Source of the DNA: a virus
UHGV virus genome: UHGV-1374414
Reading direction: 5' to 3' (one strand)
DNA length: 45,123 nucleotides
Below, one piece after another: positions 2,164-3,462 of the stretch (its first letter is position 1; each line of letters starts with the position of its first letter). The notes beneath the pieces are model-generated. The model was not told where the DNA came from. It did not search any database and saw only the letters and a program-made list of their open reading frames with translations. The position numbers and the translations under genes were made by a program.

Positions 2164-2493
2164 TTACTTAGAAGTTTTATTATTGCGTACCCAGGAGCGC
2201 ACTGTGCTCTGATTAATTCCGGTCAACTCGGCAATCATCGCCCATGATTTACCCTCGGCGCGCAAACGGATAACCTGCTTTTTGTATTCTTCCATTTCTT
2301 CATTGTGTTTTTGCAGCTTGCTTGCTGCGGTACCGTTGAGTAGTTCCAGCCTGGCGCGCAATTCTTTTTCGGTAAGCCGTAGTCGTTCGATTTCGAATAA
2401 CACCGCCCCCACGGCATCTGTATAAGCCCATGACCGGCTTGTCTCACTGCAAACAGTCTTCGTTAACATTTCGATTGCGTCGTTTACATTCAT
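2164..2493 (-). CDS. helix-turn-helix DNA-binding protein (possible regulator)
   Basis: 109-aa ORF; C-terminal GKSWAMIAELTGINQSTVRSWVRN is a classic HTH; N-terminal coiled-coil; SD GAGGGA upstream; directly upstream of primase gene. Confidence 0.7.
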   Translation of the reverse strand: MNVNDAIEMLTKTVCSETSRSWAYTDAVGAVLFEIERLRLTEKELRARLELLNGTAASKLQKHNEEMEEYKKQVIRLRAEGKSWAMIAELTGINQSTVRSWVRNNKTSK

Positions 2494-2507
2494 TGCTCTT
2501 CCCTCAG

Positions 2508-2524
2508 TTGGTTAATGACCAACG
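2508..2524. promoter_or_regulatory. palindromic operator-like site GTTGGT-N5-ACCAAC
   Basis: Perfect 6-bp inverted arms around taatg, in the leader of the minus-strand promoter. Confidence 0.4.
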
Positions 2525-2553
2525 AAACTACACCCAAAACTGCATGGTGTCAA
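2525..2553 (-). promoter_or_regulatory. sigma70-like promoter for HTH/primase operon (TTGACA-17-TAGTTT on minus strand)
   Basis: Minus strand reads TTGACA ccatgcagttttgggtg TAGTTT about 35 nt upstream of the HTH gene ATG. Confidence 0.45.
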
Positions 2554-2623
2554 ATCCTTTGGTTATTGAAACGGGCGCGCACGCGTGTAATAATAATTCC
2601 CGTCTCATTGTCTCTTATTGGTT

Positions 2624-2657
2624 AGCGCCGTCGCATTTTGCCTCGGCGCTTTTTTTT
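2624..2657 (+). terminator. intrinsic terminator with no upstream plus-strand gene (orphan)
   Basis: agcgccg-loop-cggcgct stem followed by T8 run. Confidence 0.6.
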
Positions 2658-2667
2658 AAATTAGTTG

Positions 2668-2697
2668 TTGACACCCATCCTGCAACCAATCTATCAT
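2668..2697 (+). promoter_or_regulatory. strong sigma70-like early promoter (TTGACA-18-TATCAT)
   Basis: Consensus -35 TTGACA at 2668-2673, -10 TATCAT at 2692-2697; spacer contains GCAACCAAT motif; about 190-nt leader to first plus gene. Confidence 0.6.
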
Positions 2698-2892
2698 TCA
2701 CTCCGTCGACAGGATGCAGGACGCAAACTGGAGAGGGGCAACGCAGGGGCCGGATCGAAGTGTCAGGATTCCCAACCGTGATTATATAACCAGGTCCACT
2801 ACCCGAACGGGAGAACGCGTAACCTGGCGCTATGTTAAGGCCACCGACGAAGTTAACTGCCGACACCTAAATTAACCAATCGGAGATATACC

Positions 2893-3414
2893 ATGTTTGA
2901 GCAAATCGTAAACCTGATCACTCGCGGCGTAGTAGCACTGGAAACCATCGCTAAACATTATGAAACCGTTGGCGCTGCCGTTGGTAAGCAGGAAGACAAG
3001 AAGCCGTCTAAGGCGAAAAAAGAAGTTGTCGAAGATGACGACGATGATGCCGAAGACGAAAAACCGGCTAAATCTAAAAAAGCACCGGCGAAAGGTAAGG
3101 CCAAAAAAGAAGTCGTAGCAGATGACGACGATGATGCCGAAGACGAAGACGAAAAACCGGCGAAAGCTAAAAAAGCACCGGCGAAAGGCAAAGGTAAGAA
3201 AGATGCCGATCCGCTGGCGGAGATGCGCGACGAAATCAAACAGTATGCCGCGATTATCGCTGGTGGAGATGACGACGATGCGAACGACGAATTCGACGAC
3301 CTGCTGGAATCGTTCGAGATCAAATCAATCGCCAAGCTGGAAGATGACGACGTCGAAGACTTCCACAAAGAGCTAAAAGAAATTGTCGAAACCTATTTCG
3401 AACTGGAAGATTAA
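2893..3414 (+). CDS. highly charged acidic/lysine repeat protein (first early gene)
   Basis: 173 aa; SD GGAG 7 nt upstream; repeats of DDDDDAEDE-KPAKSKKAPAKGK; terminator immediately downstream. Confidence 0.8.
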   Translation: MFEQIVNLITRGVVALETIAKHYETVGAAVGKQEDKKPSKAKKEVVEDDDDDAEDEKPAKSKKAPAKGKAKKEVVADDDDDAEDEDEKPAKAKKAPAKGKGKKDADPLAEMRDEIKQYAAIIAGGDDDDANDEFDDLLESFEIKSIAKLEDDDVEDFHKELKEIVETYFELED

Positions 3415-3422
3415 TATATTCC

Positions 3423-3449
3423 GGCCCGCTAATCTGCGGGCCTCTTTTT
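3423..3449 (+). terminator. intrinsic terminator
   Basis: ggcccgc-taatct-gcgggcc hairpin followed by tcttttt. Confidence 0.65.
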
Positions 3450-3462
3450 AGAGGACGAGACA

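What the first reader, a model, noticed from the sequence alone, without database searches (positions are those of the whole stretch)
2566..2657. Orphan intrinsic terminator in the divergent control region: possible short RNA or insulator
A strong plus-strand terminator (7-bp GC stem, T8) lies upstream of the main early promoter with no plus-strand gene before it. A weak promoter-like pair (TTGAAA ... AATAAT) about 55 nt upstream could give a ~55-nt transcript; alternatively it blocks read-through into the early operon.
Basis: inference. Interest (0 to 1): 0.45.

Follow-up and report, generated by a model that had tools for sequence, protein, structure and literature searches.

The report
Predicted anti-RBS small RNA gene
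Between the two divergent early promoters of this Dhillonvirus coliphage lies a tiny, highly conserved promoter-to-terminator unit that probably makes a ~55-nt RNA complementary to the ribosome-binding sites of the first gene on each side; this is predicted from sequence comparison only and has not been shown experimentally.

Summary
At 2566-2657 a sigma-70 promoter match (TTGAAA, 17-nt spacer, TGn-AATAAT) sits about 8 nt upstream of a 22-nt unstructured stretch. That stretch is followed by a 10-pair hairpin and a T8 run, which together form a canonical intrinsic terminator on the + strand.

The window is a complete Dhillonvirus (HK578-like) genome. The RNA body occurs in all 155 Dhillonvirus records and nowhere else.

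Conservation is sharply bounded. All 7 bases between the -10 and G2602 vary, while only 1 of the 22 bases after G2602 varies. The hairpin carries two compensatory pair changes in the one divergent allele.

The overlapping 36-aa ORF is broken in relatives, so it is not coding.

New here: the unstructured part (2609-2625) is complementary to the Shine-Dalgarno region of the first rightward gene (2872-2888). It scores best of 65 start regions, and 1 of 5000 shuffles reaches that score. In most relatives it is also complementary to the first leftward gene, with 17 contiguous pairs in WF5505.

Best reading: a stand-alone phage small RNA that represses translation of both flanking immediate-early genes. 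Its T-run probably doubles as the UP element of the early promoter. No experiment supports this yet, and seed-target covariation is inconclusive.

In passing: the adjacent 5' leader (2700-2856) is a covariation-supported structured RNA shared with other phage genera and absent from Rfam.

The parts
2566..2571 (+). -35 hexamer TTGAAA of the small-RNA promoter (P_s)
   Evidence: Invariant in 19 distinct relatives.
2586..2594 (+). Extended -10, TGt-AATAAT, of P_s
   Evidence: Invariant in 19 distinct relatives. HK578's GenBank record annotates a promoter overlapping this region.
2595..2601 (+). Variable discriminator between the -10 and the inferred start site
   Evidence: 7 of 7 columns vary among 25 distinct relatives, in contrast to both flanks.
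2602..2657 (+). Predicted small RNA of about 54-56 nt, with the start at G2602 inferred
   Evidence: The start is inferred from the promoter geometry and from the conservation boundary. The 3' end follows from the terminator. The body is present in 155 of 155 Dhillonvirus records.
2602..2623 (+). Unstructured 5' region (seed), GUCUCAUUGUCUCUUAUUGGUU
   Evidence: Unpaired in the MFE fold. Only 1 of 22 columns varies, making it the most conserved stretch of the region.
2609..2625 (+). Anti-RBS core, UGUCUCUUAUUGGUUAG
   Evidence: Inverted repeat I1. Pairing to 2872-2888 at -18.0 kcal/mol. It stays intact in Opt212 despite a 5-nt duplication just upstream.
2624..2650 (+). Terminator hairpin: 7 + 3 pairs with an internal loop
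   Evidence: 100% paired in 19 distinct sequences. Two pairs changed on both sides (G-C to U-A, G-C to C-G), and one A-U became G-U.
2650..2657 (+). T8 tract (T8 to T13 in relatives): the terminator U-tail, which also sits at about -54 to -47 of P_R, where an UP element would lie
   Evidence: The UP-element reading is inference from position.
2668..2697 (+). P_R, the main rightward early promoter, TTGACA-18-TATCAT
   Evidence: The -10 varies among TATCAT, TATTAT and TAATAT in relatives.
2525..2553 (-). P_L candidate: TTGACA (2553 to 2548), 17-nt spacer, TAGTTT (2530 to 2525). It lies back-to-back with P_s.
   Evidence: Read from the sequence. The -35 is conserved, and the -10 becomes TAGTAT in HK578-type phages. 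HK578's record annotates a promoter here.
2872..2888 (+). Proposed target 1: UUAACCAAUCGGAGAUA in the leader of the first rightward gene. SD GGAG is at 2882-2885 and the ATG at 2893.
   Evidence: Best of 65 start regions, reached by 1 of 5000 seed shuffles. Energy -18.7 kcal/mol, reached by 5 of 2000 dinucleotide shuffles.
2488..2516 (-). Proposed target 2: the start region of the first leftward gene (109-aa HTH protein). UAACCAA (2514 to 2508) lies just 5' of the SD, and the ATG is at 2493 to 2491.
   Evidence: Gapped duplex of -19.9 kcal/mol covering the SD and AUG, reached by 38 of 2000 shuffles. Much stronger in relatives: WF5505 has 17 contiguous pairs (0 of 1000 shuffles) and the slur05 type scores 29 (1 of 1000). 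Absent in HK578 and CHD5UKE2.

Best explanation
Positions 2566-2657 are a self-contained host-RNA-polymerase transcription unit. It lies back-to-back with the leftward early promoter and immediately upstream of the rightward early promoter.

It makes a primary transcript of about 55 nt. This starts near G2602 and ends in the U-tract at 2650-2657. The RNA has 22 unstructured nucleotides followed by a terminator hairpin and a poly-U tail, which is the anatomy of an enterobacterial base-pairing small RNA.

Its pyrimidine-rich 3' seed (UGUCUCUUAUUGGUUAG) pairs with a UUAACCAA-N1-2-GGAGA motif. That motif forms the Shine-Dalgarno region of the first rightward gene (2872-2888) and, in most relatives, of the first leftward gene. 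Pairing would occlude ribosome binding, so translation of the two immediate-early genes would fall as the RNA accumulates.

The T-tract and the following AAATTAG also lie where an UP element for P_R would be, so the terminator tail probably has a second job.

Shown here: the sequence elements, their conservation, the compensated hairpin, the non-coding status, and complementarity above chance.

Inferred: that the RNA is made, where it starts, that it binds these targets, and that the effect is repression.
For: Promoter and terminator anatomy.

Among 20 runs of T>=6 in the window, this is the only + strand run that directly follows a strong hairpin. The other such hairpin-plus-T-run sites are on the - strand within the coordinates of the - strand ORF block.

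The body is present in 155 of 155 Dhillonvirus records: 76 identical and 74 with one or two changes.

Conservation boundary: 7 of 7 columns vary at 2595-2601, against 1 of 22 at 2602-2623. The seed is more conserved than P_R, than either flanking coding sequence, or than the hairpin.

The hairpin is 100% paired, with two compensatory pairs. It also has an A-U to G-U change that is tolerated only in + strand RNA.

The 36-aa ORF is broken by frameshifts or stops in several relatives and has no PHROG family.

Seed against the rightward start region: ungapped score 29, best of 65 start regions, reached by 1 of 5000 shuffles. Energy -18.7 kcal/mol, reached by 5 of 2000 dinucleotide shuffles.

Seed against leftward start-region variants:
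- WF5505: 17 contiguous pairs, 0 of 1000 shuffles.
- slur05 type: 1 of 1000.
- EP23 type: 6 of 1000.
- Window type: 38 of 2000 by energy.

Of the six TTGGTTA heptamers in 45 kb, four lie in this 400-nt region. Three are conserved, and they are exactly the seed and the two start regions.

Opt212 carries a 5-nt duplication in the 5' seed that leaves the 17-nt anti-RBS core intact.
Against: There is no experimental evidence of the transcript. Two literature searches turned up no obvious Dhillonvirus transcriptome or small-RNA study; only titles and abstract openings were screened.

Seed and targets are almost invariant, so there is essentially no seed-target covariation. In the one divergent allele (L013, LM40P1, Ioannina) the seed loses a U and the rightward target changes at two positions. 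Pairing is kept as two 6-pair helices but weakens to about -13 to -14 kcal/mol, without clean compensation.

The leftward target is missing in HK578 and CHD5UKE2. In the window itself it is only a gapped duplex, whose ungapped score is not above chance (393 of 1000).

Unconstrained duplex energies are poorly discriminating: several unrelated start regions reach -20 kcal/mol.

The rightward start region resembles the T7 gene 10 leader (my own knowledge). It could therefore be conserved for translational efficiency alone.

Three copies of a 15-17-nt motif could instead be protein-binding sites.
Confidence: 0.5

Rival explanations
1. DNA-level operators. The three copies of GTCTC-N3-TTGGTTA (the leftward site at 2500-2514, the middle site at 2610-2624, and the inverted rightward site at 2873-2887) would be binding sites for a phage regulator. 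The obvious candidate is the 109-aa HTH protein encoded next door. It would control P_L, P_s and P_R, and any transcript would be incidental.
For: The motif clusters in the control region. The adjacent divergent gene encodes an HTH_23 / Sigma70_r4-like DNA-binding protein. The leftward and rightward copies lie just downstream of the predicted start sites, where a repressor could act.
Against: It does not explain why the middle copy is framed by an invariant promoter and a terminator hairpin kept by compensatory changes.

Among the leftward-site variants, most changes within the SD purine tract are A/G changes, which a U-rich RNA partner tolerates as G-U pairs. Mismatches do occur at other positions.

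Complementarity extends over 17 nt and coincides with the SD rather than with a palindrome or a regular repeat.

The fourth TTGGTTA, at 2559, is specific to this window.
Confidence: 0.15
2. Pure transcriptional architecture. The hairpin and T-run would serve only as an insulator and UP element for P_R. P_s would be a decoy or polymerase-recruiting promoter, and its short product would have no function of its own.
For: The T8-T13 run plus AAATTAG lies at about -54 to -41 of P_R, matching where UP-element subsites lie (sequence; established knowledge of UP elements). The terminator ends 11 nt before the -35 of P_R.
Against: It does not explain the near-total invariance of the 22 transcribed nucleotides upstream of the hairpin, when the 7 nt before them are fully variable. 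It also does not explain their complementarity to the flanking start regions. An UP element does not need a G+C hairpin kept by compensatory substitutions.
Confidence: 0.15
3. The RNA is real but acts on host mRNAs or host proteins (for example Hfq titration). The match to the phage start regions would be secondary.
For: Its anatomy fits the Hfq-binding module of enterobacterial small RNAs: a U/A-rich stretch next to the terminator hairpin and a long U-tail (sequence; family features from my own knowledge). The anti-SD-like CUCUU seed could reach many mRNAs.
Against: Not tested, because no host target search was possible with these tools. The best match among the 65 phage start regions is the immediately adjacent gene, which chance does not predict.
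Confidence: 0.12
4. The terminator ends a small protein gene, the 36-aa ORF 2515-2625 that is annotated in GeorgBuechner and other records.
For: The ORF exists in the window and is annotated as a CDS in some GenBank records.
Against: There is no Shine-Dalgarno sequence before its ATG. Internal stops occur in L005, L011 and L013, and frameshifted middle or C-terminal parts occur in L003, L004, L006, L010 and L042. It has no PHROG family. The only candidate promoter upstream of it (2463-2490) is not conserved.
Confidence: 0.03

Closest known systems
Enterobacterial trans-acting, Hfq-type base-pairing small RNAs, found classically as orphan promoter-plus-terminator pairs in intergenic regions; includes prophage-encoded DicF
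   Same: An own sigma-70 promoter and an intrinsic terminator in an intergenic region. A conserved unstructured seed, and a U/A-rich stretch next to a terminator hairpin with a long U-tail. Imperfect complementarity to Shine-Dalgarno regions. Divergent arrangement with a regulator gene, as in oxyS-oxyR and gcvB-gcvA (my own knowledge).
   Different: It is encoded by a virulent siphovirus, not the host or a prophage. The proposed targets are the two genes flanking its own locus. There is no sequence or Rfam relationship to any known small RNA. Hfq dependence is untested.
P1/P7 c4 RNA
   Same: A phage RNA of similar size whose complementary sites lie on the same strand downstream and include a ribosome-binding site. 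It acts in trans by imperfect pairing (my own knowledge).
   Different: c4 is processed out of the same transcript as its target, in a temperate phage's immunity region. Here the RNA has its own promoter and is separated from the target transcript by a terminator and P_R. There is no sequence similarity.
P22 sar RNA and lambda OOP RNA (cis-antisense phage RNAs)
   Same: Short (about 70-nt) phage transcripts with their own promoter and intrinsic terminator that control neighbouring early or regulatory genes. sar blocks the ant ribosome-binding site (my own knowledge).
   Different: Those are transcribed from the strand opposite their target and are fully complementary to it. No gene or predicted transcript lies opposite 2602-2657. 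The targets here are 250 nt downstream on the same strand and about 100 nt away on the other strand.
Short terminated leader transcripts of lambdoid phages (lambda 6S RNA from pR' to tR', and StxS)
   Same: A constitutive promoter followed closely by an intrinsic terminator gives a short RNA. In the case of StxS the RNA has a regulatory role of its own (my own knowledge).
   Different: Those units sit upstream of late genes and are read through under Q antitermination. Here a full-strength promoter (P_R) follows the terminator, and no antiterminator is known.

Membership tests
Intrinsic (Rho-independent) terminator | G+C-rich hairpin immediately followed by a run of at least 6 U on the transcribed strand | tested here: met
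   7 + 3 pair hairpin at -16.7 kcal/mol, z = -4.3. T8 starts at the last stem position, and relatives have T8 to T13. The - strand has no T-run after the hairpin.
Intrinsic (Rho-independent) terminator | Stem maintained in evolution | tested here: met
   190 of 190 cells paired. Two pairs changed on both sides and one changed to G-U. All of these changes come from a single lineage.
Intrinsic (Rho-independent) terminator | Termination activity | not testable with these tools
   Needs in vitro transcription, Term-seq or a reporter assay.
Sigma-70 promoter (extended -10 type) | -35 and -10 hexamers with 17 +/- 1 spacing, and TGn upstream of the -10 | tested here: met
   TTGAAA-17-AATAAT, 10 of 12, TG present. 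Invariant in 19 distinct relatives. L013 has a 2-nt shorter spacer, but the AATAATAA repeat offers an alternative -10.
Sigma-70 promoter (extended -10 type) | Initiation by the host holoenzyme | not testable with these tools
   The start at about G2602 is inferred from geometry and from the conservation boundary.
Trans-acting base-pairing small RNA (enterobacterial type) | Conserved unstructured seed | tested here: met
   Unpaired in the MFE fold. Only 1 of 22 columns varies, against 7 of 7 just upstream.
Trans-acting base-pairing small RNA (enterobacterial type) | Complementarity to a target start region above chance | tested here: met
   Rightward gene: best of 65 start regions, 1 of 5000 and 5 of 2000 shuffles. 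Leftward gene: from 0 of 1000 to 38 of 2000 depending on the phage.
Trans-acting base-pairing small RNA (enterobacterial type) | Seed and target co-vary | tested here: inconclusive
   Only one divergent allele exists. Pairing persists in it but is weaker, with no clean compensation.
Trans-acting base-pairing small RNA (enterobacterial type) | Detected transcript, Hfq binding and a regulatory effect | not testable with these tools
   Two literature searches turned up no obvious Dhillonvirus transcriptomics; only titles and abstract openings were screened.
Cis-antisense phage RNA (lambda OOP, P22 sar) | Overlaps its target gene on the opposite strand | tested here: not met
   Nothing is encoded, and no promoter is predicted to read, opposite 2602-2657. 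P_L starts at about 2518 and reads away from it.
P1/P7 c4-type RNA | Processed from the same transcript as its target | tested here: not met
   An own promoter and terminator, and a separate promoter (P_R) for the target transcript. This is architecture only; processing itself was not tested.
Any Rfam 15 family | Covariance-model match | tested here: not met
   The best overlapping matches score 18-20 bits against gathering scores of 43-72.
Small protein gene | Reading frame conserved among relatives | tested here: not met
   Stops and frameshifts in several relatives. No PHROG family.

The most novel reading that the evidence does not exclude
A virulent coliphage places one small RNA gene in the middle of its only divergent early control region. 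That single seed would shut down translation of the first gene of both early operons: the HTH regulator (leftward) and the acidic 173-aa protein (rightward). This would make a built-in RNA timer or dosage governor of the immediate-early phase. The seed looks like an antisense copy of the shared UUAACCAA-GGAGA start-region motif, so the regulator may have arisen by local duplication of its own target.
Probability: 0.35. Interest if true: 0.65.

Novelty: new member of a known kind. Interest (0 to 1): 0.5.

Why it matters
Regulatory small RNAs are well studied in temperate phages and prophages, but few are known in virulent phages.

Dhillonviruses are common coliphages. They are used as model and therapy candidates in the BASEL collection, in defence-system studies (SECphi18) and in phage-therapy isolates.

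If confirmed, this would be a genus-wide, 55-nt riboregulator sitting in the master control region. It would give a simple handle on early gene timing and a compact part for phage engineering. It would also correct existing annotations, which call the region a hypothetical protein or merely a 'terminator'.

Separately, the structured leader RNA noticed next to it is a candidate new RNA family. It is shared by several siphovirus genera.

Tried and rejected
- Rfam on the region and on related loci: nothing.
- tRNA and tmRNA scan: nothing.
- The 36-aa ORF as a gene: rejected, because the frame is broken in relatives.
- A longer transcript from the promoter-like site at 2463-2490: rejected, because its -10 is not conserved.
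- TTGGTTA as a four-site operator array: the site at 2559 is specific to this window.
- Ranking targets by unconstrained RNAduplex energy: uninformative, because many start regions reach -18 to -21 kcal/mol. I replaced it with ungapped scoring and shuffle tests.
- Metagenome scan anchored on the rightward gene start: mostly unrelated marine contigs, plus one chimeric contig carrying an Illumina adapter (L026). It added no new small-RNA allele beyond those already seen.
- Protein-anchored search for distant relatives: the 109-aa protein and the small RNA are confined to Dhillonvirus, so no deeper covariation is available.
- Literature searches for Dhillonvirus or HK578 transcription: nothing relevant.
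- HK022 put RNA as an identity for the neighbouring leader RNA: the architecture differs, about 70 nt with two stem-loops against about 150 nt with a junction.

Full report
**Identity of the window**

BLAST of the region against phage genomes gives 93-98% identity to Dhillonvirus (HK578-like) coliphages such as HK1, Gluttony, SO-1 and GeorgBuechner. The 45,123-base window has the size of a whole genome of this genus.

The ORF map shows two blocks. Rightward genes run from 2893 to about 15.7 kb. Leftward genes fill the rest, including the 109-aa gene at 2164-2493 and the helicase-primase gene that runs off the left end. The 399-nt gap at 2494-2892 is therefore the single divergent early control region of the phage.

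**The observation**

- Promoter: TTGAAA (2566-2571), a 17-nt spacer, then TG-n-AATAAT (2586-2594). This is a 10 of 12 match with an extended -10 motif.
- Hairpin: A2624 to T2650 form 7 outer pairs and 3 inner pairs. The fold is -16.7 kcal/mol, z = -4.3, and 0 of 200 shuffles fold as well.
- T-run: T8 at 2650-2657.
- Next promoter: P_R, TTGACA-18-TATCAT, at 2668-2697.

As classes, promoter-like and terminator-like matches occur at chance frequency here. The pattern scan missed this hairpin because of its loop limit.

The window contains only 20 runs of six or more T on both strands. This is the only + strand run in that list that directly follows a strong hairpin. The other such hairpin-plus-T-run sites are on the - strand, within the coordinates of the - strand ORF block.

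**Is it a gene for a protein?**

A 36-aa ORF (2515-2625) ends inside the hairpin and is annotated in GeorgBuechner and CHD5UKE2. In relatives it acquires internal stops (L005, L011, L013) or frameshifts (L003, L004, L006, L010, L042). It has no Shine-Dalgarno sequence and no PHROG family. It is not a conserved coding sequence.

**Conservation**

The 48-nt body (2602-2649) is found in 155 phage records, all of them Dhillonvirus. That is the same number of records that carry the neighbouring 109-aa gene. Of these, 76 are identical, 74 have one or two changes, and 5 are more diverged (one at 90-95%, four at 80-90%).

I aligned 25 distinct versions of the wider region. Variability by segment:

| Segment | Coordinates | Variable columns |
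|---|---|---|
| Promoter | 2566-2594 | 6 of 29 |
| Between the -10 and G2602 | 2595-2601 | 7 of 7 |
| Unstructured part of the predicted RNA | 2602-2623 | 1 of 22 |
| P_R | 2668-2697 | 8 of 30 |
| Leftward coding sequence | 2300-2493 | 87% of columns |

The switch from fully variable to invariant falls where a sigma-70 promoter with this -10 would start transcription. This is the strongest single argument that the transcribed sequence itself is under selection.

In 19 distinct sequences of the unit:
- All 190 hairpin cells pair.
- In the divergent allele, two pairs have changed on both sides (G-C to U-A and G-C to C-G).
- One A-U pair has become G-U, which is acceptable only in + strand RNA.

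These changes come from one lineage, so they represent one or a few events.

**What the RNA could do**

The repeat search showed that 2611-2624 is the inverted complement of 2873-2886, with 86% complementarity.

Read as RNA, 5'-UGUCUCUUAUUGGUUAG-3' (2609-2625) pairs with 5'-UUAACCAAUCGGAGAUA-3' (2872-2888). That gives 13 Watson-Crick pairs, 3 G-U pairs and one mismatch, at -18.0 kcal/mol. The target contains the Shine-Dalgarno GGAG (2882-2885) of the first rightward gene, whose ATG is at 2893.

With an ungapped pairing score, this start region is the best of 65 in the genome (29 against 24 for the next). Only 1 of 5000 shuffled seeds reaches that score. By duplex energy, 5 of 2000 dinucleotide shuffles do.

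The start region of the first leftward gene also carries UAACCAA immediately 5' of its Shine-Dalgarno sequence.
- In the window the match is gapped. Three helices cover the SD and AUG at -19.9 kcal/mol, reached by 38 of 2000 shuffles. The ungapped score is not significant.
- In relatives the leftward leader differs and matches better:
  - WF5505 reads UAACCAAUAGGAGACAG: 17 contiguous pairs, reached by 0 of 1000 shuffles.
  - The slur05 type is reached by 1 of 1000 shuffles.
  - The EP23 type is reached by 6 of 1000 shuffles.

Most differences among these leaders within the SD purine tract are A/G changes, which the U-rich seed tolerates as G-U pairs. Mismatches occur at a few other positions.

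Of the six TTGGTTA heptamers in 45 kb, four lie in this region. The three that are conserved are the seed and the two start regions. The fourth, at 2559, is specific to this window.

**Limits of that inference**

- Seed and targets hardly vary, so covariation cannot be assessed properly.
- In the L013, LM40P1 and Ioannina allele the seed has lost one U and the rightward target has two changes. Two 6-pair helices remain, but the energy falls to about -13 to -14 kcal/mol and the changes are not cleanly compensatory.
- HK578 and CHD5UKE2 have a different leftward gene start that lacks the motif.
- Unconstrained duplex energies are poorly discriminating.
- The rightward start region resembles the phage T7 gene 10 leader, with a UUAAC element plus GGAGAUAUAC. 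This comparison is from my own knowledge. It means the region could be conserved for translational strength alone.
- Two literature searches turned up no obvious transcriptome or small-RNA study of this genus; only titles and abstract openings were screened.
- GenBank records annotate only a promoter (HK578) or a terminator (WF5505, CS16) here.

**Mechanism proposed**

Host RNA polymerase would fire P_L, P_s and P_R on entry. P_s would give a terminated RNA of about 55 nt whose anatomy fits enterobacterial Hfq-type small RNAs: an unstructured seed, a U/A-rich stretch next to a terminator hairpin, and a tail of 8-13 U. As the RNA accumulates, it would pair with the Shine-Dalgarno regions of the first rightward and first leftward genes and reduce their translation.

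The leftward gene encodes an HTH_23 / Sigma70_r4-like DNA-binding protein. The rightward gene encodes a highly charged 173-aa protein of unknown function, phrog_3127.

The terminator also keeps P_s transcription out of P_R. Its T-run plus AAATTAG lie at about -54 to -41 of P_R, the position of an UP element (inference).

My estimates: about 0.75 that the RNA is made, and about 0.5 overall for the model including anti-RBS action on at least one flanking gene.

**Rivals**

1. The three motif copies are operators for the neighbouring HTH protein. This is plausible, but it does not explain the promoter and compensated-terminator frame around the middle copy, nor the G-U-tolerant variation.
2. The unit is only an insulator and UP element. 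This does not explain the invariant seed.
3. The RNA targets the host. This was not testable here.
4. It is a small protein gene. Rejected.

**Comparison with known systems**

It works like a trans-acting base-pairing small RNA. Among phage RNAs it is nearest in logic to P1/P7 c4, which has same-strand, imperfect pairing to a downstream ribosome-binding site. It is more distant from P22 sar and lambda OOP, which are cis-antisense. It is not a member of those families:
- It has no overlap with an opposite-strand gene.
- It has its own promoter and terminator rather than being processed out of a longer transcript.
- It has no sequence or Rfam similarity to any of them.

I rate it a new member of a known kind, and it remains a prediction only.

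**Noticed in passing: a structured leader RNA**

The 5' leader between P_R and the rightward start region (about 2700-2856) is a separate, optional element. It is absent from some Dhillonviruses: YD-2008.s, Envy, WF5505, CHD5UKE2 and the L013 type. It is present at up to 94% identity, on the gene strand, in intergenic gaps of Hanrivervirus, Warwickvirus, Murrayvirus, HeidiAbel_Bas97 and Serratia phage MQ-4. In every case it follows a promoter-like sequence.

A covariance model built from 8 sequences finds one copy per locus, at 147-168 bits. On 20 distinct sequences the proposed fold is a hairpin plus a three-way junction. In that fold 94.4% of cells pair, and 10 pairs (63 cells) changed on both sides, against 4-19 cells in slid controls (compare).

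Nothing in Rfam 15 matches it. Its architecture differs from the roughly 70-nt, two-hairpin put RNA of HK022 (PMC9378689). Its position right after early promoters, and upstream of the terminator at 3423-3450, makes an antitermination or leader function worth testing.

Some records, such as GeorgBuechner, merge this element into the first CDS.

Noticed in passing
window 2700-2856 (+); also L043:1477-1626, L044:1492-1640, L045:1492-1639, L046:1492-1640, L047:1477-1626: A structured RNA element of about 150 nt lies in the 5' leader directly after P_R. It is present or absent among Dhillonviruses and is shared (core 92-94% identical) with intergenic, promoter-proximal gaps of Hanrivervirus, Warwickvirus, Murrayvirus, HeidiAbel_Bas97 and Serratia phage MQ-4. 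The fold is a hairpin plus a three-way junction, supported by covariation: 94.4% of cells paired and 10 pairs (63 cells) changed on both sides, against 4-19 cells in slid controls. No Rfam 15 family matches. This is a candidate new phage RNA family; its function is unknown, and an antitermination or leader role is a guess.
   Followed up: partly
window 2714-2875 and about 2872: Other Dhillonviruses have one extra C (CTAAACTTAACC against CTAAA-TTAACC in the window). With it, an ATG at 2714 is in frame with the 173-aa gene, and GeorgBuechner annotates a 232-aa CDS. In the window the frame is broken, leaving a 53-aa ORF. The stretch is a covarying RNA that is intergenic in other genera, so the long CDS annotation is probably wrong.
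   Followed up: partly
window 3423-3450 (+): A strong terminator-like hairpin (GGCCCGC-TAATCT-GCGGGCC, then TCTTTTT) follows directly after the first rightward gene. P_R, the leader RNA and the 173-aa gene would therefore form a short immediate-early unit unless the terminator is read through. WF5505's record annotates the equivalent terminator.
   Followed up: no
window 2575-2589: The spacer of the small-RNA promoter is a 15-nt perfect alternating purine-pyrimidine, G+C-rich tract (GCGCGCACGCGTGTA). It is kept as an alternating tract of variable length in relatives (CGCGCGCGCGTGTA in HK578). It lies between divergent promoters, where negative supercoiling accumulates, so it might make P_s sensitive to supercoiling or Z-DNA. 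This is speculation.
   Followed up: no
window 2872-2895: The start region of the first rightward gene (UUAACCAAUCGGAGAUAUACCAUG) resembles the phage T7 gene 10 leader, which has the epsilon element UUAACUUUA plus GGAGAUAUACAUAUG. The comparison is from memory and was not tested. It may be a high-efficiency translation start.
   Followed up: no
window 2677-2721: An inverted repeat (ATCCTGC / GCAGGAT) spans the P_R -10 and the +1 region. It gives a weak, sub-threshold Rfam match to DUF2693-FD on the - strand (20.3 bits, E = 0.19). It may be an operator, or part of the first hairpin of the leader RNA.
   Followed up: no
L050 (Opt212), about 451-500: One relative carries a 5-nt duplication (TGTCT) in the 5' part of the predicted small-RNA seed. 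It leaves the 17-nt anti-RBS core intact.
   Followed up: partly
L026 (OQVL01056812.1): This metagenome contig joins Dhillonvirus sequence, within the terminator hairpin, to an Illumina adapter (ACACTCTTTCCCTACACGACGCTCTTCCGATCT). It is a chimeric assembly artefact.
   Followed up: yes
L043, L047 and L044, just upstream of the leader RNA copies: The leader RNA copies in the two Drexlerviridae phages (slyngel, JLBYU07) and in the Murrayvirus Lumpael are preceded by ATAGCACnnnTTGnTAAAA. This is the unexplained 21-nt intergenic repeat reported for phage TLS (PMC11447400). In these loci it sits where a promoter -35 region would lie.
   Followed up: partly
H81/H82 and H170/H177 (SECphi18, ZCEC10 records): Some deposited Dhillonvirus genomes are linearised at, or within about 100 bases of, the small-RNA terminator T-run, so the control region is split across the record ends. 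This is probably an assembly or annotation convention.
   Followed up: no
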